Virus record (IMG/VR): IMGVR_UViG_3300045988_019467
Reading direction: 5' to 3' (one strand)
DNA length: 43,946 nt
Source: a virus
Taxonomy: Duplodnaviria > Heunggongvirae > Uroviricota > Caudoviricetes
A program made the position numbers and the translations under genes. This document shows, piece after piece, positions 10,843 to 24,228 of this stretch (its first letter is position 1; each line of letters starts with the position of its first letter). The notes under the pieces are model-generated. The model was not told the DNA's origin. It searched no databases and worked only from the letters and a program-made list of their open reading frames with translations.

Positions 10843-11255
10843 TGGGCTACTTTGAGGACTTAACCAAAGCGTTTGATGTGCCGTTGGTAGCCTTCGGGAA
10901 CGCAAACGGCATCAAGGTTGCGCTTGAAAACATCGACGCGCCGACGTCAACAGATACGCCGTATCTGGCGAGTTACATGTTGCTGGCGGATACGGAACAG
11001 GCGGATTTGTTCTTCACCGAGCAACGCTCTGGTATCTATCAGGTCGACATTAACTACGCATCGGTGAAAGGTAGCGCGCCAATCAATAAAATGGCAGACT
11101 TACTTAACACGGCGTTTAAAGCAGGTAAGTCATTTTCACGTAACGACATCTGCGCCGAGGTTCAATCGGTTAGCCTGGGGCCGCTGATTGTAGAAAACGG
11201 ATGGGCCAAACGACCATTGTCAATTAACTTTATTGCATTCACCAAGAGGCTGTGA
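10842..11255 (+). CDS. tail terminator / tail completion protein (putative)
   Basis: 137-aa ORF immediately upstream of the tail-tube-sized gene. Confidence 0.4.
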   Translation: MGYFEDLTKAFDVPLVAFGNANGIKVALENIDAPTSTDTPYLASYMLLADTEQADLFFTEQRSGIYQVDINYASVKGSAPINKMADLLNTAFKAGKSFSRNDICAEVQSVSLGPLIVENGWAKRPLSINFIAFTKRL

Positions 11256-12424
11256 ATATGGCTACAACTCCTTTTAAGGGCGCGACTACCGCGCAATTCT
11301 ATGTGGCGGAAACTACCCCTGGCGTAACACCGACTAACCCGGTATGGTCGCCGTTGCGTAACACAGGTGGCGTTCCTGCTATTACCCGTGACACGCTGAC
11401 CTCCAACGAACTGGACGGCAGCCGTGAAACTACATCCATCCGAACCGGTAACAAACAGGTTAGCGGTGAATACGCGGTCGAGCTTAGCTCTAAAAGCCAG
11501 GACGACTGGCTGGCGGGTGCTTTAGGCTCTACGTGGCAATCCGGTGTTTCTCTGTCGGGGCTGTCGATTACCGTCGCACCGGTGGGCAAGACGTTCACCC
11601 GTGCCGAAGGTAGCTTTATTACTGACGGTGTGGAAGTAGGCGACCTGATTGCGTTTACTGACTTAACCGGCGATAACGCTAAACCGTTTATTGTTACTGC
11701 GGTAGAGGCACTGGTGGTAACTGGTGCGGGTATTCAACACACTCTGATCGCCGAGACTGCTACTACCGCGGCTAAGACCGGCGACAAACTGGAAACCGGC
11801 AGCCAGTGTAAGACGTTCTCTATTCTCACCTGGTACAAGGGCCAGTGCGGCGGGACAGACGCGTACACGCTTACCAAAGGCGTGGAAGTTTCTGGTTTCA
11901 CTGTTGAACAGGCCGTTAACGCGATGGTGACGGGCAGCTTCCCGTTCATCGGGCGCAGCCAGGAGATTCTTACCGCGGCGCCGTCTGGTTCCGACTTCTC
12001 CTCTGTTACGTTTGGTGACGAGCCGTTCTCCTCGGTTGACGTTTCCGTGTTCGATGGTTCTACGCCGTTGCGTTGCGACAGCCTGACCATCACCAACGAC
12101 AACAGCGCGTCCGCACAGTTCGAACTCGGCAACACTAACGTTGCATTTGTTGAGCGTAGCCGCGCGGCTAACACCTTCTCTATCTCTGGCAAGCTGTACG
12201 ACATGGCGATGATTCAGAAGTTTATCAACGAACAGCAGGTAGAGATTAACTCTATTCTGGCTGGGGTAAACGGGGCTATGTCTTTCAGTTTGAAACGTGC
12301 AGAACTCACGGCGGTCACACCGGAGATTGGCGGACCTGAGTCAATCACTCAGTCTATTGAAGGCCAGGCTACTGGCAACCAGTACCAGTCGTCTATTGTT
12401 ATCCAGCGTATCACCTACGCATAA
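11252..12424 (+). CDS. major tail (tube) protein (putative)
   Basis: 390-aa Thr/Ser/Gly-rich ORF between neck genes and the tail chaperone/tape measure genes; followed by a strong terminator. Confidence 0.5.
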   Translation: MNMATTPFKGATTAQFYVAETTPGVTPTNPVWSPLRNTGGVPAITRDTLTSNELDGSRETTSIRTGNKQVSGEYAVELSSKSQDDWLAGALGSTWQSGVSLSGLSITVAPVGKTFTRAEGSFITDGVEVGDLIAFTDLTGDNAKPFIVTAVEALVVTGAGIQHTLIAETATTAAKTGDKLETGSQCKTFSILTWYKGQCGGTDAYTLTKGVEVSGFTVEQAVNAMVTGSFPFIGRSQEILTAAPSGSDFSSVTFGDEPFSSVDVSVFDGSTPLRCDSLTITNDNSASAQFELGNTNVAFVERSRAANTFSISGKLYDMAMIQKFINEQQVEINSILAGVNGAMSFSLKRAELTAVTPEIGGPESITQSIEGQATGNQYQSSIVIQRITYA

Positions 12425-12428
12425 AACT

Positions 12429-12454
12429 AAGGCCCCGAAAGGGGCCTTTTTCTT
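12429..12454. terminator. bidirectional intrinsic terminator (AAGGCCCC-GAAA-GGGGCCTT + TTTTTCTT)
   Basis: 20-mer identical to 2655..2674 followed by a T-run; separates the tail tube gene from the convergent moron operon. Confidence 0.65.
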
Positions 12455-12629
12455 ACTCACTTTTGAATGCCATTTCGTAGAAGTTAGTTAACTGACCTCT
12501 GTCACTCCGTTCTGTCATCTCTTTTGCGGCCTCTTCCTTGCTACCTACGGCGTAAATATCAACCCACTCATCCCATTCTTCGTCATATACGCGGATAACG
12601 TATATTGTTCCCATTGTGCCTTCACGCAT
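12453..12629 (-). CDS. hypothetical small acidic protein (last gene of moron operon; start uncertain)
   Basis: ORF in frame to 12659; start placed at the internal ATG 12629 to limit overlap with the upstream gene. Confidence 0.35.
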   Translation of the reverse strand: MREGTMGTIYVIRVYDEEWDEWVDIYAVGSKEEAAKEMTERSDRGQLTNFYEMAFKSE

Positions 12630-13191
12630 TTGGGTAAATCCCCAGGATTCTATTAGCAATCGCGGCCGCTGTTAATGTAATCTCGCCTGGGATGACCACA
12701 ACGTCATGACATACCGCACCATCAATACCGTACAGGTAACCACGACTATCCCCGTCAAACGTATAGCCGTCTCTGCGCAAGCGAACGATTTTTACGTCAT
12801 GCCCTGCGGCGACGATAGGGGACACTTCACTGGCGAATCCACCGTCTGACACTACAAAAACGTCATCGCCGTCGGGCAAGTTTTCAGCAAGATACTTACC
12901 GAAATAATCGCCGCCGAGAACCGGTTTAATGAATTGCTCAGAAATGGCAATCATGAACTGACGACGAGACAAACCATTAAGGAAACCCTCTGGCTTTTCT
13001 TTCCGCGCCCGGTCGTCGTAGCCGTCGAGAAACTCGTGGTACGCATCCGGACCTAACGCTGCCAGAGCAATATTGAACATTGGATTTTTGAAACTGGTAG
13101 CACCCTTCGCAAAGCCCATTTCTACCAGCGCCATAGCAAGTGTGTCTTTCCCACAACCCGCCGGGCCATTAAGAATAATTACCTTAGCCAT
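12622..13191 (-). CDS. P-loop kinase (dNMP kinase-like or polynucleotide 5'-kinase-like)
   Basis: N-terminal Walker A GPAGCGKDT resembling phage dNMP kinase and PNK P-loops; translationally coupled to the upstream HAD gene. Confidence 0.55.
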   Translation of the reverse strand: MAKVIILNGPAGCGKDTLAMALVEMGFAKGATSFKNPMFNIALAALGPDAYHEFLDGYDDRARKEKPEGFLNGLSRRQFMIAISEQFIKPVLGGDYFGKYLAENLPDGDDVFVVSDGGFASEVSPIVAAGHDVKIVRLRRDGYTFDGDSRGYLYGIDGAVCHDVVVIPGEITLTAAAIANRILGIYPNA

Positions 13192-13676
13192 TATTTATCG
13201 CTCCCGTGTGATTTTAAGTGTGTAGAATTCCCGTTACAGTCGTATTCAGTAACCGCGTGAGTGGTTATACCGAGTCCGCGGAAATGCTTTATTACCGCCG
13301 GAGAGTCGTCGAATGCGCACAATATTCTTTCCAGCCCGATAGCACGTAACACCTCTTCTTTAATTACGATGTCTTTTCTGTTGTCGTGTTTGCTGCGCAT
13401 GATTAACTGATAAAATTCGACGCGGTGGCGCTGCAACCACATTCTGGTTTCTTTTTCTGCATCATCACTGCGACCAGTTAAAATAATAACGGCGTAGCGA
13501 CGATTAAGGGCGTTACACAGTTCGATGTTATCTCTAATTGGTTCATCATCTTTGCACGCCATGTTAAAGGGTTTCCACGCCCATGTTTCGTTGTAGTTAT
13601 CTTTCGGCAGCAGGTGTAAACGATGTGTACCATCTGCCAATGTTCCATCTAAATCGAAAATTACAATATCTTTCAT
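13191..13676 (-). CDS. HAD-superfamily phosphatase (T4 Pnkp phosphatase-like motif I)
   Basis: N-terminal IVIFDLDGTL (DxDGT catalytic motif I of HAD phosphatases, as in the T4 Pnkp 3'-phosphatase domain). Confidence 0.6.
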   Translation of the reverse strand: MKDIVIFDLDGTLADGTHRLHLLPKDNYNETWAWKPFNMACKDDEPIRDNIELCNALNRRYAVIILTGRSDDAEKETRMWLQRHRVEFYQLIMRSKHDNRKDIVIKEEVLRAIGLERILCAFDDSPAVIKHFRGLGITTHAVTEYDCNGNSTHLKSHGSDK

Positions 13677-14803
13677 CCCAGCATCTCCGGTGAAATAGTT
13701 AAACGTGCGACCTCGCCGTATTCGGCGCTATAAGTAATTACATTTGCACTGCGTCCTGACATCCATCCGCCGCGAGAGGCGTAGGCGTCTTTCGCCGCTA
13801 AGGTGCGGTGTTGCTCAACAATCATGTTACGGCTTTCTACAATCTTCTGGTGGTGCAGGTGGCCTACGTGGGCGTAGCTGTACACGCTTTCGCCAAATGC
13901 TTTGCGGAACTTGGCAATCATAACCGGTTCGATAGCGTCGAATCGTGCTTTATGCCCGTGGTGAAAGAACAACGTCGTTTTGCCGTGTTGCACCATCTTG
14001 TAAACATCCGGCGACGTATCGACGAACACACGCGGCTCATTGTCGTACAGCGTGTTGAACATCTCAGCCAGCCAAATCATACCCGATTCGTCGTGGTTCC
14101 CTTGCACGATAAGCAAGCGAACGGTTTTATGTTTAACAAGCGCCATATCAACAACACGGCGCACCATACGAATCATGTAGCGAACCAGTTTCTGATAGCG
14201 AGTATCGGCGTCCAACACATGGCGCGACTCAGGTGTAACGGCGTCCAGGCTATCGAAGTGAGCAAAGTCACCCAGCAGGTTAATAACCCCGGTTCCCGCA
14301 TCTGGTGCTTTCTGAAACGCCGCATCGAACCAGCGAGAAAACAGGTCTTCCGCAATCTTCATATCCCAGTCGTCGCCGCTCTCGTCAGCCCAGGCCAGCA
14401 TACCGAGATGGAAATCAGATACCGTGTAAAGATTGAGCAGCTTGTCGTCGCGTTTGGTGCGGGCGGCTTTAACAGGCGCAACTGGAGTAATCTCTGACTT
14501 CATGCCCTCGATTACGGCTTTCATCAATTCGACCTGACGTTCGGCATCGGTATCGGTCTTAACCCATTGCAACTTAGTGTTGCCGAACTCGTCCACAAGT
14601 GACGATGTTCCTTTAATCTTGTAGCCGTCCGGCACAAGGTGGCTAACGTCACGCCCATGACCCACGCCTTTCTTCGCCAGCTTCGCTTTACGGATACGAA
14701 TAACGCGGTCTGAGATTCCGTACTTACGTGCGATATCAATAATCTTCATTCCGGCGTTCAATTCTTCCTGTAACTGTTCGTCGGTTATTTTCTTCTGGGC
14801 CAT
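13673..14803 (-). CDS. calcineurin-like metallophosphoesterase with N-terminal HTH domain
   Basis: MPE motifs D-x-H (VSDFHLG), GDxxH (LLGDFAHFD), GNHD (VQGNHDES), HHGH and GHLHH; N-terminal HTH-like segment (IARKYGISDRVIRIRKA); start at ATG 14803 with RBS GAGGAAG. Confidence 0.6.
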   Translation of the reverse strand: MAQKKITDEQLQEELNAGMKIIDIARKYGISDRVIRIRKAKLAKKGVGHGRDVSHLVPDGYKIKGTSSLVDEFGNTKLQWVKTDTDAERQVELMKAVIEGMKSEITPVAPVKAARTKRDDKLLNLYTVSDFHLGMLAWADESGDDWDMKIAEDLFSRWFDAAFQKAPDAGTGVINLLGDFAHFDSLDAVTPESRHVLDADTRYQKLVRYMIRMVRRVVDMALVKHKTVRLLIVQGNHDESGMIWLAEMFNTLYDNEPRVFVDTSPDVYKMVQHGKTTLFFHHGHKARFDAIEPVMIAKFRKAFGESVYSYAHVGHLHHQKIVESRNMIVEQHRTLAAKDAYASRGGWMSGRSANVITYSAEYGEVARLTISPEMLG

Positions 14804-14841
14804 GCTTACTTCCTCGTGTTTAGGATTTGTCTTATAGTAGC

Positions 14842-15033
14842 TTACTTCTCTTTCACGTTCGAGTTGCAAGCCCAGATTAAAATAAATACCCACGGCAGCA
14901 GAACCCAACCAAGAAACAGGTTAGCCATGAATATAGCTAACTTCGCTTTATGGTTACGGAAGTACGCAACCAGGAAAGGTGCGAAATAAGCGAGCAGTGC
15001 AAACAGAATTAAGGAAACTGGTAAACTGGACAT
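14842..15033 (-). CDS. small membrane protein (two predicted TM helices), first gene of moron operon
   Basis: Hydrophobic 63-aa ORF; start taken at ATG 15033 preceded by AAGGGG (an upstream ATG at 15048 is also possible). Confidence 0.4.
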   Translation of the reverse strand: MSSLPVSLILFALLAYFAPFLVAYFRNHKAKLAIFMANLFLGWVLLPWVFILIWACNSNVKEK

Positions 15034-15060
15034 TTTAAACCCCTTCATTGTTGGTGTAAG

Positions 15061-15092
15061 TGAATAGTACCCTATTATATTGGGGTGTGCAA
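15061..15092 (-). promoter_or_regulatory. class-1 promoter-like element, copy 3 (on minus strand: TTGCAC-N7-TATAAT-AGGGTACTATTCA)
   Basis: Same conserved motif; TATAAT on the minus strand about 40 nt upstream of ATG 15033. Confidence 0.5.
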
Positions 15093-15199
15093 GTAATATG
15101 GTAGAATAATTTTGCGCCTAGTGTCGCACACGAAAAGCGGGTGGTTCCCGTCTGGCGCATTTCCTTTAACCAGTAACCTCTTAACCAAAGGATTAAAGA

Positions 15200-15616
15200 A
15201 TGAAACTTTCTGATTTTTATTACGAAGCTGAAGCCGAAAAGGGTGCGCGTATGCCGATACCGTTAAAAGACGGTACCGATTCTGGGGAATGGCTTAATGT
15301 TGTTTCTCCTGAGGCAGACGTTGCCGTTAAGGCTATGCGCGCGTTCACCCTTGCATACCGGGCAGTGTTAGGGAAATTAAAACCGCTTCGTGATAAGTGC
15401 GAAGAGATGAAAGATTTCTCTGAATACAACCTGAAGATGGAAGATGCGGCCACGGACCTTAACCGACAGTTAGCAATTGAATTGATTAACGGGTGGAGCC
15501 TGGACGACGAATTCAATAAAGAGAATCTGAACACACTCCTGACGCAATATAAACGACTCGCGGAACTTGTTGTTGTGTTTCATAACGAACAACTGCGCCA
15601 GTTACAGGAAAAGTAG
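15200..15616 (+). CDS. tail assembly chaperone (gpG-like, putative)
   Basis: 138-aa acidic ORF immediately upstream of the tape measure gene; a -1 frame ORF overlaps its end. Confidence 0.5.
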   Translation: MKLSDFYYEAEAEKGARMPIPLKDGTDSGEWLNVVSPEADVAVKAMRAFTLAYRAVLGKLKPLRDKCEEMKDFSEYNLKMEDAATDLNRQLAIELINGWSLDDEFNKENLNTLLTQYKRLAELVVVFHNEQLRQLQEK

Positions 15617-15981
15617 ACGCGTTGCTCCAGTTCGCTCGTTGGAACTTCATAACCCGCCACAAACGGCGGGAATTTGACAGTATCGCCGACGGGCATAAAG
15701 CCGCGCTAATTGCTATGGGGGTTATGCAAGACGCGCCGGAAGCAACGCAGGACACCGGGCCGGAATGTCCCCCTGAGCTATTAACCACCTTCGAGAAGTA
15801 CCGGGAAATCAAATTTACCCGCCGAGTAGATGACGACGACATCAAGATGTACCCGCGAGAACAGTTACGATGGTCGGATTTAGTGGCGTACAGCACCGTT
15901 TCGGGCCAGAATATAGGCATGTTTGAATCTGACATCATCATGAGCTTAGACGCTATTTTCGAGGGTAGAAACGATGGCTGA
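15586..15981 (+). CDS. candidate -1 frameshift extension of the tail chaperone (gpGT-like)
   Basis: -1 frame is open from 15586 through 15981 and overlaps the chaperone stop; near-canonical slippery heptamer GGAAAAG at 15607..15613 (lambda uses GGGAAAG). Confidence 0.3.
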   Translation, partial: RTTAPVTGKVDALLQFARWNFITRHKRREFDSIADGHKAALIAMGVMQDAPEATQDTGPECPPELLTTFEKYREIKFTRRVDDDDIKMYPREQLRWSDLVAYSTVSGQNIGMFESDIIMSLDAIFEGRNDG

Positions 15982-18313
15982 TGTAGCTAGTTTAGTCGTA
16001 AAAGTATCAGAGCAAGGCGCGAAAGCCACGTCAGACCGTCTTGACAACCTTTCAAAGTCCGCAAAAGTAGCGGGGGCCGCTGTAGCAGGCCTTGCTTCTA
16101 TCGTAGCGGCTACCGCATATAAAGCCGCGCAAGAACTGGTTGACTCACAGCGGCAACTGGACAAGATGTCCGCTAGTTTGAAGACCTTAACCGGAAGTAC
16201 CCAGGGCGCTAAACAGGCGCTTAGTATCCTGCAAGATTTTGCGCGCGACACCCCATACGGGCTTGAGCAGGCGGTGGAAGGCTTCCGTAAGCTGGTGGCT
16301 CTGGGCCTTACCCCATCCGAGGAGGCGTTGCGGTCCTACGGCAATACCGCATCGGCTATGGGTAAGGACCTTAATCAGATGATTGAGGCGGTAGCCGACG
16401 CCAGTACGTTCGAGTTCGAACGCCTCAAAGAATTCGGCATCAAAGCCAAGCAGAACAAAAACGACGTAGAGTTTACGTTCCAGGGAACGACAACGGTAGT
16501 TAAGAAAAGCGCTGCCGATATCGAGCAGTATTTACTCAATATTGGTAACGTAAATTTTGCGGGGGCTATGGCGGACCAAGCCAACACCCTTAATGGCGCT
16601 ATCGCGAGTGCCAGTGACTCATGGTCGCAGCTAAAAATGACGCTTGCCACCGGTCTTGATGTTGGCGCACTTGCTGAACCTATCAGGTATATCGATGACT
16701 TGATTCAGGAATTAAACGCGTCTGTTGCTTCCGGTGAATTAGCCGCTGAAATGCAGATGTGGGGCGACATCGCGTCGGAAGTAGGAAGCGCTATCGAGAT
16801 GTCATTCGACGCTGCGTTTGGCTTTGTCGGCGACGCCATCAACGGGCTTAATGAACTGTGGGATTTCAGCAGCAAGAGTATTACCGATAGCGGAGAACAA
16901 ACAGCTACCACCATCGCGGAATCCGCTGCCGATGCGCTTGACTTCATCGCGGAAGAGTTCACCGCGATGGAGAGATTCTTTGAAGATATGGTTAAAGGTG
17001 CGCAGGACGCGGGCCGTCTTGTACGAGCCGCTTTCACCCCCGGGGAATCAGTAGACGTAGCTAAAAATATCAACTTCCAGCTTGGCTTGGCTTTGGATAC
17101 CCAGCGCGATGTCGCCGACGTTACGCGTAAAAGTTTCCGCGAACAGGTAGAAGCTCAACAGGATATTGTAGCGTTAAAACGCGCGGCATATGACATCGAT
17201 AAGGAATCCGCAAAAGCTGAGGGGTTAAACAAATTTAAGGTAACCGGAACTGGTGGCGGTTCTGACGATGACGGGTCCTCCGCAAAAGCCGCTAAGAAAG
17301 CAGCGGACGCGTTCGAGCGCCAGAAAAAAGCGGCGGAAGACTTCTACTATCAGTCAATCCATCTTAATGATGACGTATTCCAGAAAATAGAAGCTAACCA
17401 GGAAGAGCAACTGTCTAAGTTGCAGGATTTCTATAGCAATAAGCTTCTTAGCGACCAGCAATACGAAAACGCCAAGACGCAGATTATGTTATCCGCTGAG
17501 CAGGCCCGCCAGGAAGAACTGGACAAGAAAAGGAAGGAGGCCCAGGAAAAGCAACAGAAAGGTGACGATTTCATGGCTCAGATTATGGGCCAGAATGCCA
17601 CCGAGCTTGAGCTTCTGGATATTCAGGAACAGCAGAAACTGGCGGTAGCGGATAAGTACCGGGAACAGGGTCTTATTAATGAAGAACAATACCAGGCTGC
17701 GCTTAACGCCATCAACGAACAGTACGCAACCAAGCGTGCTGACGCAACGGCAACAGCTTTTGGCAATATGGCATCCAACATTGGGTCCGCGTTAGGTGAA
17801 GCATCTGGCGCTTATAAAGCGTTCGCTATCGTACAAGCCACTATCGCTACGTACACCGCAGCTATTGAGGCATATAAGTCAACTGCTGCTATCCCGGTTG
17901 TCGGACCGTTCCTTGCACCGGTAGCTGCTGCTGCTGCCGTTGGGGCAGGTATGGCGCAGGTTTCCGCTATCAGGTCTGCGCGTGAACAGGGTGGTCAGTT
18001 ATCCGCAGGGCAGGCTTCCACCATCGCAGAACGTGGTAAACCCGAAGTTATCATGCCAGCTGGCGCATCGCGTGTTCGCACCGCGCAGCAGATGAAAGAA
18101 ATTATGGGGCAAAACGGGTCTTCTTCCGGCCCGTCTAATGTTACTATCGTAAACAACACATCGAGTCAGATTGGCAATGTATCCACTGAGCAGGATGACG
18201 AAGGCCGCTTACGCATCATCATCGAAGAGCAAGTGGCAGCCTCTTTGCAGAACAGCAACAGTAAGATTAGCAAGGCCCGCAAGGCCACAAGAAACGCGCC
18301 GGGGTTCAAATAA
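15974..18313 (+). CDS. tail tape measure protein
   Basis: 779-aa Ala/Gln/Glu-rich, coiled-coil-like protein with a hydrophobic Gly/Ala segment near the C-terminus; canonical position after the chaperone pair. Confidence 0.8.
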   Translation: MADVASLVVKVSEQGAKATSDRLDNLSKSAKVAGAAVAGLASIVAATAYKAAQELVDSQRQLDKMSASLKTLTGSTQGAKQALSILQDFARDTPYGLEQAVEGFRKLVALGLTPSEEALRSYGNTASAMGKDLNQMIEAVADASTFEFERLKEFGIKAKQNKNDVEFTFQGTTTVVKKSAADIEQYLLNIGNVNFAGAMADQANTLNGAIASASDSWSQLKMTLATGLDVGALAEPIRYIDDLIQELNASVASGELAAEMQMWGDIASEVGSAIEMSFDAAFGFVGDAINGLNELWDFSSKSITDSGEQTATTIAESAADALDFIAEEFTAMERFFEDMVKGAQDAGRLVRAAFTPGESVDVAKNINFQLGLALDTQRDVADVTRKSFREQVEAQQDIVALKRAAYDIDKESAKAEGLNKFKVTGTGGGSDDDGSSAKAAKKAADAFERQKKAAEDFYYQSIHLNDDVFQKIEANQEEQLSKLQDFYSNKLLSDQQYENAKTQIMLSAEQARQEELDKKRKEAQEKQQKGDDFMAQIMGQNATELELLDIQEQQKLAVADKYREQGLINEEQYQAALNAINEQYATKRADATATAFGNMASNIGSALGEASGAYKAFAIVQATIATYTAAIEAYKSTAAIPVVGPFLAPVAAAAAVGAGMAQVSAIRSAREQGGQLSAGQASTIAERGKPEVIMPAGASRVRTAQQMKEIMGQNGSSSGPSNVTIVNNTSSQIGNVSTEQDDEGRLRIIIEEQVAASLQNSNSKISKARKATRNAPGFK

Positions 18314-22236: not shown

Positions 22237-24228
22237 ATGTCAAGCGGATGCGGTGATGTTTTAAGCCTGGCGGATTTACAAACCGCCAAGAAACACCAGA
22301 TTTTCGAAGCAGAGGTAATTACCGGTAAATCTGGCGGAGTAGCCGGGGGTGCAGATATTGATTACTCCACCAATCAGGTTACTGGACAGACCCAGAAGAC
22401 GTTACCTGCCGTGTTGCGCAGCCTGGGTCTAGCCCCTGCATCTTTCGATTTCACATCTGGGGGTACTTTAACTACTGACGACAGGAACAAGGCCGTGTTA
22501 TGGCCCTCTACGGACGGCGGCGACGGGGACTGGTACTATTGGGCAGGTAGTTTGCCGAAGACTATACCGGCATCATCTACACCCGCATCTTCCGGCGGTG
22601 TAGGGGGAGGCGCATGGTTGTCTGTTGGGGGGGTTATTTTACGACAGGACCTGGCTGCTTTTGGTGGAGCATCATTGATTGGTCCAGGTGTAATGTCCCG
22701 CGGAAACGATAAGTTTTCTATCATGCAAGGGAGAACCGGGGAGTATCAAAACGATGGTATGACATACGGGATAGGAGTTATCCTTACGGACCCTATCACT
22801 GGCACTATACCCAACGCCAGCACTGCAAAATTTAACTACCTTGCTATCATAGACGACCAGGTTAATGCTGTTGACGATTTAACGGCCGGGACAAAAGTTG
22901 ACGGGCTACAGGTAAACCATGTTTTCGGCGGCACCGCAGCCAAAGGTGGCAGGCACGCGGCAGAATTTGTATCTACCCATAAATCACCTACCAGTGTCGA
23001 CAACCCGGACCGTAACTATGTGGGTGTGGTTGGGTTGGCAGTGTCGCAAAATGGCGACGGAGGGGCAGTATCAACGTCCCCGAGCACATTCAAAGGTGGG
23101 TACTTTGGCGGGAATATGTACGGTAGTTTGAGCCCATCCGCCGTTGGTGTATATAACGTGACCGCATGTGAGTTTAACACAGTAGCCTCCGAAGGGTCGT
23201 CTGTATGGTATAGGTCAGGGATTCAGGTCATTGGTGGTGGGGCCGTACAAGGAAGCGCCGTAGACGTTGGGGTTGCCTTGTCGAATCTTTCGACAGCTAC
23301 GGTCCGATGGAGAAACGCCTTTCGTATAGGGAACATGAATGGGGGGCACGCGTTAGCATCGGACAGCAAAATACTTGTAGCGTTTACCGATGTGACGTCG
23401 ATCGCATCTGGGTTCGAGATACCAAAGTGCTCAACTACTATTTTAACATCCGGAGACGTTAATTTACAGAACGATAAATTAATCATGAGCGCTTCTGGGT
23501 CTGCTATTGAACTGGGAAGCACCACAGCCCCAGGTACGGCATACATAGACTTTCACTCAAGCGGAAACCCTAACGATTATGATGCAAGGGTTGTGGTTAG
23601 TGGCGGGGCGTCGTCTTCCGGGCAAGGCACTTATGGGGTTAACGCGGGTGTTATTCAGCTTAATGCTTCTACTGAAGTCATAGCCGCCGCCAACATAAGA
23701 CCCTCTACGGACAATACCATATCGAATGGCACCGCGTCTAGACGGTGGTCTGTGGTATACGCGGGAACCGGGACGATAAACACATCAAATGAAGACCTCA
23801 AAGTACGGGATAAGATACTTGAAGCCGAACGTGCCGCGGCCCTGGAAATAAAGAATGACATATGGAAATTTAGATTCAAAGATGCTATCGCCGAGAAAGG
23901 CAACGGTGCCAGGTATCACTTTGGCGTAGGTGCGCAATCTATAGGTAAAATTTTGCGTAAGCATGGACTGGACCCTGAAATGTACGCTTTCTACTGCCAC
24001 GATACCTGGGACGCGGAGTATGAGCCAATCATGGCTAAGCGTACCGTACTTAAGGACCAAGAAGTAACGGAAATAGACGACCTAACCGGCAAAACTATTA
24101 CTACCACTAAGACGATTGAAGTCGAGGAAGAGTACGACACCGGGGAAAAGAGATGCACCTTAGAGGCAGGTGAAAACTTCGGCGTTCGCTATGAGGAACT
24201 TCTTTGTTTTATTATGGCGGCCCTGTAA
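22237..24228 (+). CDS. tail fibre with C-terminal intramolecular chaperone (peptidase S74-like) domain
   Basis: C-terminal region (...RAAALEIKNDIWKFRFKD...YHFGVGAQSIGKILRKHGLDPEMYAFYCHDTWDAEY...) matches the self-cleaving chaperone domain of endosialidase and L-shaped tail fibres; Gly-rich central region. Confidence 0.65.
   Translation: MSSGCGDVLSLADLQTAKKHQIFEAEVITGKSGGVAGGADIDYSTNQVTGQTQKTLPAVLRSLGLAPASFDFTSGGTLTTDDRNKAVLWPSTDGGDGDWYYWAGSLPKTIPASSTPASSGGVGGGAWLSVGGVILRQDLAAFGGASLIGPGVMSRGNDKFSIMQGRTGEYQNDGMTYGIGVILTDPITGTIPNASTAKFNYLAIIDDQVNAVDDLTAGTKVDGLQVNHVFGGTAAKGGRHAAEFVSTHKSPTSVDNPDRNYVGVVGLAVSQNGDGGAVSTSPSTFKGGYFGGNMYGSLSPSAVGVYNVTACEFNTVASEGSSVWYRSGIQVIGGGAVQGSAVDVGVALSNLSTATVRWRNAFRIGNMNGGHALASDSKILVAFTDVTSIASGFEIPKCSTTILTSGDVNLQNDKLIMSASGSAIELGSTTAPGTAYIDFHSSGNPNDYDARVVVSGGASSSGQGTYGVNAGVIQLNASTEVIAAANIRPSTDNTISNGTASRRWSVVYAGTGTINTSNEDLKVRDKILEAERAAALEIKNDIWKFRFKDAIAEKGNGARYHFGVGAQSIGKILRKHGLDPEMYAFYCHDTWDAEYEPIMAKRTVLKDQEVTEIDDLTGKTITTTKTIEVEEEYDTGEKRCTLEAGENFGVRYEELLCFIMAAL

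What the first reader, a model, noticed from the sequence alone, without database searches (positions are those of the whole stretch)
15586..15622. Candidate programmed -1 frameshift in the tail assembly chaperone (G/GT-like)
The chaperone ORF ends at 15616, but the -1 frame is open from 15586 and continues 120 codons to the tape measure start. The heptamer GGAAAAG (15607..15613) lies three codons before the stop and resembles the lambda G-T slippery site GGGAAAG with one mismatch. The G/GT frameshift is conserved across tailed phages.
Basis: partly seen in the sequence, partly recalled or inferred. Interest (0 to 1): 0.35.

Follow-up and report, generated by a model that had tools for sequence, protein, structure and literature searches.

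The report
Tail chaperone -1 frameshift site
This is the ordinary "G/GT" trick of tailed phages, in which a few ribosomes slip back one base at the end of the tail-chaperone gene to make a longer fusion protein; here the slip signal is a short non-textbook one (A-AAG next to the stop codon) that is strictly conserved across the phage subfamily.

Summary
The window is a Kagunavirus (Guernseyvirinae) genome. ORF G (15200-15616, 138 aa, Pfam Phage_TAC_4) ends CAG GAA AAG TAG. The -1 frame is open from 15586 to 15981 and encodes a Phage_TAC_18 domain that ends 8 nt inside the tape-measure gene.

GGAAAAG alone is no more frequent than chance (6 found, 5.9 expected). The evidence is comparative. In 77 distinct relatives (42-99% aa identity) the junction is always NNA AAG directly followed by TAG or TAA in the aligned set, and one excluded contig puts the stop one codon later. 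Synonymous diversity falls from a median of 0.50 to 0.003-0.01 at codons 136-141, the minimum of the whole gene. The frame overlap shrinks to 10 nt in some relatives, which confines the shift to the last two codons. The supposed TTG start (15622) is CTG in 58 of 77.

The core signal is therefore the tetramer A_AAG (tRNA-Lys slipping onto AAA) next to a stop, with G_GAA giving near-cognate support. No RNA stimulator is conserved across the family. A stable fold downstream is clade-specific.

Four relatives already carry joined frameshift CDSs, while one published announcement rejected a frameshift for lack of a canonical site. Nothing has been tested experimentally. This is an ordinary feature of low interest.

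The parts
15200..15616 (+). Gene G: tail assembly chaperone, 138 aa, the product of standard decoding (15.93 kDa)
   Evidence: ORF list. Pfam Phage_TAC_4, 32.6 bits against a cutoff of 21.1. Matches phrog_15027 positions 1-138 of 259. An SD-like AAGGA lies about 7 nt before the ATG.
15607..15613 (+). Shift site G_GAA_AAG. The core tetramer is A_AAG at 15610-15613, where tRNA-Lys re-pairs from AAG to AAA. GAA to GGA would be a near-cognate re-pairing for tRNA-Glu, with a G.U at the middle position.
   Evidence: Across 77 distinct relatives: K138 is AAG in 77/77, codon 137 is always NNA across six codon types, and G precedes GAA in 55/55. The gene-wide minimum of synonymous diversity lies here. 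In L086 and L094 the -1 frame opens only 10 nt before the end of G.
15614..15616 (+). 0-frame stop TAG directly abutting the slip codon (a possible 'shifty stop'). In the -1 frame its TA completes the invariant Val codon GTA.
   Evidence: TAG or TAA, never TGA, directly follows AAG in all 77 aligned sequences. L082, which was left out of the alignment, has AAG TTA TAG instead.
15619..15624 (+). Invariant GCG YTG (Ala141-Leu142 of the fusion) 5 nt after AAG. It contains the TTG (15622) that the rival reading uses as a start codon. Why its third positions are frozen is unexplained.
   Evidence: GCG in 77/77, although GCG makes up only 34% of Ala codons elsewhere in these genes. Leu142 is CTG in 58 and TTG in 19.
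15613..15981 (+). T segment: 122 codons read in the -1 frame after the slip, plus the TGA stop. Base 15613 is read twice. The fusion GT is 260 aa and 29.95 kDa.
   Evidence: Pfam Phage_TAC_18, 65.3 bits against a cutoff of 27. Matches phrog_15027 positions 143-259. The extension is 119-122 codons in every intact relative. The translation of the join was checked.
15614..15708 (+). Predicted stable RNA fold downstream of the site: an outer stem (ACGC with GCGC), an inner stem (GCUCGUUGG with CCGACGGGC) and a hairpin (CCCGCC-ACAAAC-GGCGGG). It is a possible clade-specific stimulator and is unproven.
   Evidence: MFE -37.1 kcal/mol, z = -3.6, 0 of 200 shuffles as stable. It ranks in the lowest 3% of local 100-nt windows. 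There is no family-wide consensus structure and no compensatory changes within the clade.
15974..18313 (+). Tape measure protein gene (context). Its ATG overlaps the end of the T frame (ATGGCTGA).
   Evidence: phrog_1538, E = 7e-206. Pfam TMP_3 scores 36.1 bits, below its 41-bit cutoff. ORF list.

Best explanation
This is a programmed -1 ribosomal frameshift of the lambda G/GT type. Most ribosomes translate the chaperone gene 15200-15616 and terminate at TAG, giving G (138 aa). A minority slip back one base on A_AAG (15610-15613). The single E. coli tRNA-Lys leaves AAG and re-pairs with AAA, the next codon read is GTA, and translation continues in the -1 frame to 15981. The product is a 260-aa G-T fusion whose C-terminal TAC_18 domain is made only in this way.

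By analogy with lambda, G and the G part of GT coat the tape measure protein, and the T part recruits the tail tube protein. This functional step is inferred, not shown.

The sub-mechanism I favour, at roughly even odds, is a post-translocation slip. tRNA-Lys sits in the P site, tRNA-Glu (GAA to GGA) sits in the E site, and the slowly decoded stop codon waits in the empty A site (a 'shifty stop'). The alternative is a classical A/P-site tandem slip driven by a downstream structure.
For: **Shown by sequence and comparison**

- Gene order, frames and coordinates are as described.
- Both ORFs are TAC families, and one PHROG profile spans both.
- In 26 + 7 + 78 related loci the -1 extension is always 119-122 codons.
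- In 77 distinct sequences codon 137 is NNA (GAA 55, GCA 14, GTA 4, AAA 2, TCA 1, GGA 1). K138 is AAG in 77/77, although AAA outnumbers AAG 835:501 elsewhere in these genes. All 77 aligned sequences have TAG or TAA next.
- Synonymous diversity is 0.003-0.01 at codons 136-141 against a median of 0.50, the lowest in the gene.
- Two lineages carry textbook heptamers at the same position: G_GGA_AAG in L066 and A_AAA_AAG in L085.
- The frame overlap is only 10 nt in L086 and L094.
- K138, V139, A141 and L142 are invariant across the junction in 12 fusions of 42-87% identity to the window protein.
- Joined CDSs already exist in K1ind2, Shemara, AH01 and fFiEco03.

**From the literature**

- A_AA.G is the most shift-prone tetramer in E. 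coli (PMC4066793).
- A_CGA_AAG (B. subtilis cdd) and G_CGA_AAG (IS1222) are precedents, and the sole tRNA-Lys pairs weakly with AAG (PMC5009743).
- Lambda G:GT is made at about 30:1 and is needed for tail assembly (PMC5009743).

**For the shifty-stop sub-mechanism**

- The stop codon is adjacent to the slip codon throughout the aligned set.
- No downstream structure is conserved across the family.
- In about 20 of 77 sequences the preceding codon cannot re-pair in the -1 frame.
- G precedes GAA in 55/55 sequences.
Against: - There is no experimental evidence for the fusion protein in this phage or, as far as I could find, in any Guernseyvirinae.
- The window's heptamer is not a canonical X_XXY_YYZ.
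- Tetramers alone were barely above background without a stimulator in reporter assays, and I could not demonstrate a conserved stimulator.
- Part of the invariance at V139 is forced by its overlap with AAG and the stop codon.
- The window does have a TTG 5 nt after the stop, so some independent initiation cannot be excluded for this particular phage.
Confidence: 0.88

Rival explanations
1. The downstream ORF is a separate gene. It is translated on its own from TTG 15622, either by de novo initiation or by termination-reinitiation 5 nt after the G stop. This gives a free 119-aa T protein and no fusion.
For: The window and its closest relatives do have a TTG at 15622. An AGGA lies at 15606-15609. 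Many GenBank records annotate two separate CDSs. The Shashou authors saw no canonical slippery sequence.
Against: The codon is CTG (Leu) in 58 of 77 relatives, while the protein upstream and downstream of it stays conserved. The AGGA is 12 nt from the TTG, overlaps the slip site, and is absent from relatives with GCA, GTA or TCA before AAG. This model does not explain why codon 137 must end in A, why Lys138 must be AAG, or why the stop must abut it. One PHROG profile spans both ORFs.
Confidence: 0.05
2. Only a truncated downstream protein is made, from the internal ATG 15715 (88 aa), as annotated in the 99.8%-identical phage EcoPhCCP1. On this reading the region 15617-15714 is non-coding.
For: PQ384582 annotates exactly this CDS, and G AB-2017 has a similar one. 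The Pfam TAC_18 match starts at residue 38 of the TTG-started ORF.
Against: The 31 codons upstream of that ATG are conserved as protein with normal synonymous turnover of about 0.5 (F159, D160, I162 and H166 are invariant). The ATG itself is ATC or TTC in several relatives (L035, L036, L037, L115, L117). There are no stop codons in this frame in any relative.
Confidence: 0.03
3. It is the same -1 frameshift, but by a classical simultaneous A/P-site slip on G_GAA_AAG. The stimulator would be the stable RNA fold beginning just after the stop (15614-15708), and the stop codon would play no active role. (This is a sub-mechanism of the best explanation, so its confidence is conditional on a frameshift occurring.)
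For: The downstream 104 nt fold at -37.1 kcal/mol, z = -3.6. This lies in the lowest 3% of local windows, and the same holds across the Golestan, fFiEco03 and Jersey clades and some others. The window structure is paired in 63% of cells against 32-45% for slid controls. G before GAA is conserved in 55/55. In the one relative whose stop is displaced (L082), the 5-nt spacing to GCGCTG is kept. Tetramers and heptamers need a stimulator for percent-level shifting in reporters.
Against: RNAalifold finds no consensus structure over 64 relatives (-0.31 kcal/mol). K1G- and K1ind-type relatives have unremarkable downstream stability, with ranks of 0.4-0.6. Changes within the clade break pairs or are wobble-only, and none is compensatory. 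Synonymous diversity returns to background by codon 143. The hairpin helix is paired in only 41% of cells.
Confidence: 0.4

Closest known systems
Phage lambda G/GT tail assembly chaperone frameshift (Levin, Hendrix & Casjens 1993; Xu, Hendrix & Duda 2004, 2013, 2014; summarised in PMC5009743)
   Same: There are two overlapping ORFs directly upstream of the tape measure gene. The second ORF is in the -1 frame and has no conserved start. A Lys AAG codon acts as the slipping codon. The G and GT products are of similar sizes. The arrangement is conserved across relatives.
   Different: Lambda uses the canonical heptamer G_GGA_AAG several codons before the G stop. Here the window has G_GAA_AAG abutting the stop, and many relatives keep only A_AAG. 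There is no detectable sequence homology to lambda G or T (the families here are Pfam TAC_4 and TAC_18). The tube gene is separated from the chaperone by a 2.6-kb opposite-strand gene island.
Orthologous joined CDSs in Guernseyvirinae: K1ind2 ORF21A/21B (NC_041898.1), Shemara (NC_069152.1), Pantoea AH01 (MZ501269.1), fFiEco03 (MT711524.1)
   Same: They have the same gene pair, the same junction (NNA AAG TAR) and the same product lengths.
   Different: These are annotations only, with no experimental support that I could find. The nearest record to the window (EcoPhCCP1, 99.8%) and most others annotate two separate genes. The Shashou announcement rejected a frameshift.
A_AAG tetramer -1 frameshift sites: B. 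subtilis cdd (A_CGA_AAG) and IS1222 (G_CGA_AAG), plus the systematic E. coli tetramer study (PMC5009743, PMC4066793)
   Same: tRNA-Lys slips from AAG to AAA, and the preceding codon cannot fully re-pair. A_AAG is the best tetramer in E. coli.
   Different: Those sites rely on an upstream SD-like element and/or a downstream structure. Here no such element is conserved, and the stop codon sits immediately 3' of AAG.
Burkholderia phage KL1 gp18/gp19 (PMC3483164)
   Same: KL1 has a 142-aa chaperone and a 264-aa fusion. Its predicted slip site lies immediately upstream of the stop codon. KL1 shares other structural proteins with K1-type phages.
   Different: KL1 has a canonical heptamer (GGGAAAC) and a TGA stop, and a tail gene intervenes before the tape measure gene. 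I did not test homology of its chaperone to this one.

Membership tests
G/GT-type tail assembly chaperone frameshift (Xu, Hendrix & Duda 2004) | Two overlapping ORFs immediately upstream of the tape measure protein gene | tested here: met
   G is 15200-15616, the -1 ORF runs to 15981, and the TMP ATG is at 15974.
G/GT-type tail assembly chaperone frameshift (Xu, Hendrix & Duda 2004) | The pair lies downstream of the major tail (tube) gene | tested here: met
   The tube gene is 11252-12424 (Pfam Phage_tube_2, 138.9 bits) and lies upstream. It is not adjacent: a minus-strand island at 12453-15048 intervenes.
G/GT-type tail assembly chaperone frameshift (Xu, Hendrix & Duda 2004) | The second ORF is in the -1 (or +1) frame and lacks a conserved start codon and SD of its own | tested here: met
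   The frame is -1. TTG 15622 is CTG in 58/77. The only SD-like AGGA is 12 nt away and not conserved.
G/GT-type tail assembly chaperone frameshift (Xu, Hendrix & Duda 2004) | A canonical X_XXY_YYZ slippery heptamer in the overlap | tested here: not met
   The window has G_GAA_AAG. Only 3 of 77 relatives have canonical heptamers (G_GGA_AAG, A_AAA_AAG). The authors of this family also accepted non-canonical sites (from my own knowledge), so this weakens membership but does not exclude it.
G/GT-type tail assembly chaperone frameshift (Xu, Hendrix & Duda 2004) | The arrangement and the site are conserved among diverged relatives | tested here: met
   This holds in 77 distinct sequences down to 42% identity, and synonymous diversity is lowest at the site.
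G/GT-type tail assembly chaperone frameshift (Xu, Hendrix & Duda 2004) | G and a minor amount of the GT fusion are both made and both required for tail assembly | not testable with these tools
   This needs a western blot or MS and genetics. None were found in the literature searches.
Pfam tail assembly chaperone families | A score above the curated gathering threshold | tested here: met
   G: Phage_TAC_4, 32.6 against 21.1. T: Phage_TAC_18, 65.3 against 27.
Z_ZZN tetramer -1 frameshift sites (A_AAG class) | A_AAG in the 0 frame within the window where both frames are open | tested here: met
   A_AAG is at 15610-15613 and is invariant in 77/77. The frame overlap is as small as 10 nt.
Z_ZZN tetramer -1 frameshift sites (A_AAG class) | A flanking stimulator (upstream SD-like element at 10-14 nt, or a downstream hairpin or pseudoknot at 5-9 nt) | tested here: inconclusive
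   There is no SD at 10-14 nt. A stable fold is present in the window's clade but is not conserved and shows no covariation. An invariant GCG YTG lies 5 nt downstream, with unknown role.
'Shifty stop' frameshifting (Weiss et al. 1987) | A stop codon immediately 3' of the slipping codon | tested here: met
   AAG is followed directly by TAG or TAA in all 77 aligned sequences. L082, excluded from the alignment, has it one codon later. Whether the stop actually stimulates the shift is untested.

The most novel reading that the evidence does not exclude
The Guernseyvirinae site may be a minimal, structure-independent -1 recoding signal with the form A_AAG + UAR + NN + GCGYUG. On this reading a P-site tRNA-Lys slip is driven by slow termination at the adjacent stop. 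The invariant GCG YUG, 5 nt downstream, would act as a compact new kind of stimulator, for example through contact with the mRNA entry channel or rRNA rather than through a hairpin.
Probability: 0.2. Interest if true: 0.45.

Novelty: new member of a known kind. Interest (0 to 1): 0.22.

Why it matters
The main value is for annotation. The nearest GenBank record and most of the roughly 490 related phage genomes list the T segment as a separate or truncated 'hypothetical protein', and one published announcement argued against a frameshift. The comparative data here pin the site to two codons. They support the annotation join(15200..15613,15613..15981) for this therapeutically used group of E. 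coli and Salmonella phages.

There is also a small mechanistic point. A whole subfamily maintains only a tetramer plus an adjacent stop, and sometimes a near-cognate heptamer, with no conserved RNA structure. That makes it a convenient natural test case for stop-codon-assisted -1 slippage.

Tried and rejected
- **Heptamer statistics.** GGAAAAG is not enriched in the window, so I dropped it as evidence.
- **Family-wide RNA stimulator.** RNAalifold on 64 junctions gave essentially nothing. Counting pairs for the window's own MFE structure beat the slid controls, but the structure was derived from one of the sequences and showed no excess of compensatory pair types. I treat this as inconclusive.
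- **Downstream stability ranks.** These split by clade, so I rejected a universal stimulator.
- **Transcriptional slippage.** Rejected, because the A run is only 4 nt in the window and 3 nt in many relatives.
- **Frameshift elsewhere in the 31-nt overlap.** Rejected, because the overlap is only 10 nt in some relatives.
- **The search for homologous proteins with the 260-aa fusion.** It returned only 5 short hits and no fused entries, so it was uninformative.
- **Promoter and terminator scan of 14800-16200.** It found nothing on the + strand between G and T.
- **Literature searches for experimental proof in Kagunavirus, Jerseyvirus and K1 phages.** These found none.

Full report
**What the window is**

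The 1-kb region around the finding is 99.8% identical to Escherichia phage EcoPhCCP1 and 89-96% identical to many Kagunavirus genomes (Guernseyvirinae). It is about 80% identical to the Salmonella Jersey-type phages. The window is essentially a whole siphophage genome.

**Checking the observation**

- ORF G runs from ATG 15200 to TAG 15614-15616 (138 aa).
- The -1 frame has a TAA at 15583-15585 and is then open to TGA 15979-15981.
- GGAAAAG is at 15607-15613.
- The tape measure gene starts at ATG 15974, so the end of the T frame overlaps it (ATGGCTGA).

In frame 0 the end of G reads caG GAA AAG TAG. The heptamer therefore abuts the stop directly rather than lying three codons before it. A slip on AAG gives ...LQEK-VDALLQFARW..., which adds 122 further codons. 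The result is a 260-aa, 29.95-kDa fusion against a 15.93-kDa G.

The heptamer is not informative by itself. It occurs 6 times in the window against 5.9 +/- 2.4 expected.

**What the two ORFs are**

G matches Pfam Phage_TAC_4 and the downstream ORF matches Phage_TAC_18, both above their gathering thresholds. One PHROG profile, phrog_15027 ('tail assembly chaperone', 259 positions), matches G over positions 1-138 and the downstream ORF over positions 143-259. Fused versions of this protein are therefore already in phage protein collections.

The gene that follows is the tape measure gene (phrog_1538, E = 7e-206). The tail tube gene (Pfam Phage_tube_2) lies at 11252-12424.

**Comparative evidence**

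I collected relatives from IMG/VR and from GenBank phages.

- *Extension length.* In every intact relative the -1 extension is 119-122 codons.
- *Junction sequence.* Among 77 distinct G+T sequences, chosen from an alignment set that goes down to 42% identity with the window protein, the junction is always NNA AAG followed by TAG or TAA.
- *Codon 137.* It is GAA (55), GCA (14), GTA (4), AAA (2), TCA (1) or GGA (1). That is six codon families, all ending in A. Only 22% of third positions in these genes are A.
- *Lys138.* It is AAG in 77/77, although AAA outnumbers AAG 835:501 elsewhere in the same genes. Glu137 is never GAG.
- *Val139 and Ala141.* Val139 is GTA in 77/77. Ala141 is GCG in 77/77, while GCG makes up 34% of Ala codons elsewhere.
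- *Synonymous diversity.* A per-codon scan has a median of 0.50. It falls to 0.003-0.01 for the 5-codon windows starting at codons 136-137, which is the minimum for the whole 260-codon gene. It is back to background by codon 143.
- *Canonical heptamers.* Two lineages carry textbook heptamers at exactly this position: G_GGA_AAG in L066 and A_AAA_AAG in L085.
- *Frame overlap.* In L086 and L094 the -1 frame opens only 10 nt before the end of G. The shift must therefore occur within the last two sense codons.
- *The exception.* One old 5.7-kb metagenomic contig (L082) reads GCA AAG TTA TAG. It keeps A_AAG and the K-V-x-A-L reading but moves the stop one codon downstream. It was left out of the 77-sequence alignment.

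**The rival start codon**

The TTG at 15622 is CTG in 58 of the 77 sequences. The residues around it (K138, V139, A141, L142) are invariant in a 12-sequence alignment spanning 42-87% identity to the window protein.

In the window there is no other ATG, GTG or TTG in this frame before ATG 15715. Yet the 31 intervening codons are conserved as protein, with invariant F159, D160, I162 and H166, and they show normal synonymous turnover. That ATG, which EcoPhCCP1 uses as the start of a 'hypothetical protein', is ATC or TTC in several relatives.

The only SD-like element before TTG 15622 is AGGA at 15606-15609. It is 12 nt away, lies inside the slip site, and is lost in relatives with GCA, GTA or TCA. 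By contrast, G and the tape measure gene have good SD sequences at 7-8 nt. Independent initiation is therefore not the family's way of making the T domain.

**Mechanism**

The conserved core is the tetramer A_AAG. According to the systematic E. coli study, A_AA.G is by far the most shift-prone tetramer, reaching up to 5.6% with a strong pseudoknot. Tetramers alone were barely above background (PMC4066793).

The Atkins et al. review gives the rationale. The sole tRNA-Lys pairs weakly with AAG and better with AAA. It also gives natural precedents in which the preceding codon cannot re-pair: A_CGA_AAG in B. subtilis cdd and G_CGA_AAG in IS1222 (PMC5009743).

In the window the preceding codon GAA is itself preceded by G. 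The same holds in all 55 GAA-bearing sequences, through six different upstream codons. tRNA-Glu could re-pair GAA to GGA with a G.U at the middle position, which is my inference. A two-tRNA slip is therefore plausible where the sequence permits, but it is not required family-wide.

For a stimulator I found the following.

- *No family-wide RNA structure.* The RNAalifold consensus is -0.31 kcal/mol.
- *A stable fold just downstream in the window.* It scores -37.1 kcal/mol, z = -3.6, and is in the lowest 3% of local 100-nt windows.
- *Clade-specific distribution.* This fold is shared by the Golestan, fFiEco03 and Jersey clades and a few other lineages. It is absent from K1G- and K1ind-type relatives, whose ranks are 0.4-0.6. 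It has no compensatory substitutions.
- *What is invariant instead.* The stop codon immediately 3' of AAG, and a GCG YTG 5 nt further downstream.

I therefore favour, at roughly even odds, a post-translocation slip. tRNA-Lys would be in the P site, tRNA-Glu in the E site, and the stop codon waiting in the A site. This is a 'shifty stop' in the sense of Weiss et al. 1987. Horsfield et al. 1995 proposed an E/P-site slip of this kind, a point I cite from memory. The alternative is a classical A/P-site slip helped by the clade-specific fold.

Transcriptional slippage is excluded, because the A run is only 3-4 nt.

**Comparison with what is known**

Functionally this is the lambda G/GT system, where G:GT is about 30:1 and both are needed for tail assembly (PMC5009743). 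I did not test sequence homology to lambda G or T.

The orthologous site is already annotated as a joined frameshift CDS in four relatives:

- K1ind2, ORF21A/21B
- Shemara
- Pantoea phage AH01
- fFiEco03

Most records, however, list two genes. [quoted passage not shown]

Burkholderia phage KL1 has a similar layout. Its heptamer GGGAAAC lies immediately before the stop, with products of 142 and 264 aa (PMC3483164). The remote IMG/VR relative L030 has A_AAA_AAC directly before a TGA.

I found no experimental demonstration of the fusion in this subfamily.

**Verdict**

The feature is an ordinary member of a well-known class. It has a non-canonical but well-precedented slip signal whose conservation is unusually clean. 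The residual uncertainty is experimental: no fusion protein has been shown. It is also mechanistic: the role of the stop codon, the role of the invariant GCG YTG, and the role of the clade-specific fold are all open.

Confidence that a -1 frameshift at 15610-15613 produces a G-T fusion is about 0.88. Interest is 0.22.

Noticed in passing
window 15619-15624: GCG YTG (Ala141-Leu142 of the fusion), 5 nt after the slip codon, is invariant at its third positions in 77/77 relatives. GCG makes up only 34% of Ala codons elsewhere in these genes. No stable pairing partner or other role was identified.
   Followed up: partly
window 12453-15048 (minus strand): A 2.6-kb opposite-strand gene island sits between the tail tube gene and the chaperone gene. 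It contains a 68-aa ORF, a P-loop protein (GPAGCGKDT), a PNKP-type HAD phosphatase (Pfam HAD_PNKP, 69.9 bits), a metallophosphoesterase (annotated 'DNA repair exonuclease' in relatives) and a superinfection-immunity protein (Imm_superinfect, 48.4 bits). It interrupts the usual tube-chaperone adjacency.
   Followed up: partly
window 15715-15981; PQ384582.1 28412-28678: The 99.8%-identical GenBank record EcoPhCCP1 annotates the T segment as an 88-aa 'hypothetical protein' starting at the internal ATG. This cuts off 31 conserved codons and looks like a mis-annotation.
   Followed up: yes
L066 1606-1620; L085 1606-1620; L082 (junction): At the orthologous position some relatives carry canonical heptamers: G_GGA_AAG in L066 and A_AAA_AAG in L085. 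One short old metagenomic contig (L082) has AAG TTA TAG, with the stop displaced by one codon but the spacing to GCGCTG kept. This could be a real variant or a sequencing error.
   Followed up: partly
window 22237-24228: The 663-aa tailspike has a Tail_spike_N domain and a weak but above-threshold hit to the endosialidase catalytic domain (End_tail_spike, 29 bits against a cutoff of 25). This hints at a K1-capsule-related depolymerase.
   Followed up: no
window 15974-15981: The T-frame stop overlaps the tape measure start (ATGGCTGA). The tape measure gene could therefore be translationally coupled to the minority of frameshifted ribosomes, as well as using its own GAGGG SD.
   Followed up: no
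window 13673-14908 (minus strand): The mechanical ORF starts at a TTG (411 aa), but relatives annotate 376 aa (1131 nt) from the internal ATG (MAQKKITDEQ...). The longer form is probably not real.
   Followed up: no
L030 (IMGVR_UViG_2899916314_000002), around locus 1630-1640: A remote relative (44% identity over 45 aa) has A_AAA_AAC directly followed by TGA, then a 113-codon -1 extension. Placing the slip site right at the stop may therefore be common beyond Guernseyvirinae. Burkholderia phage KL1 shows the same placement.
   Followed up: no
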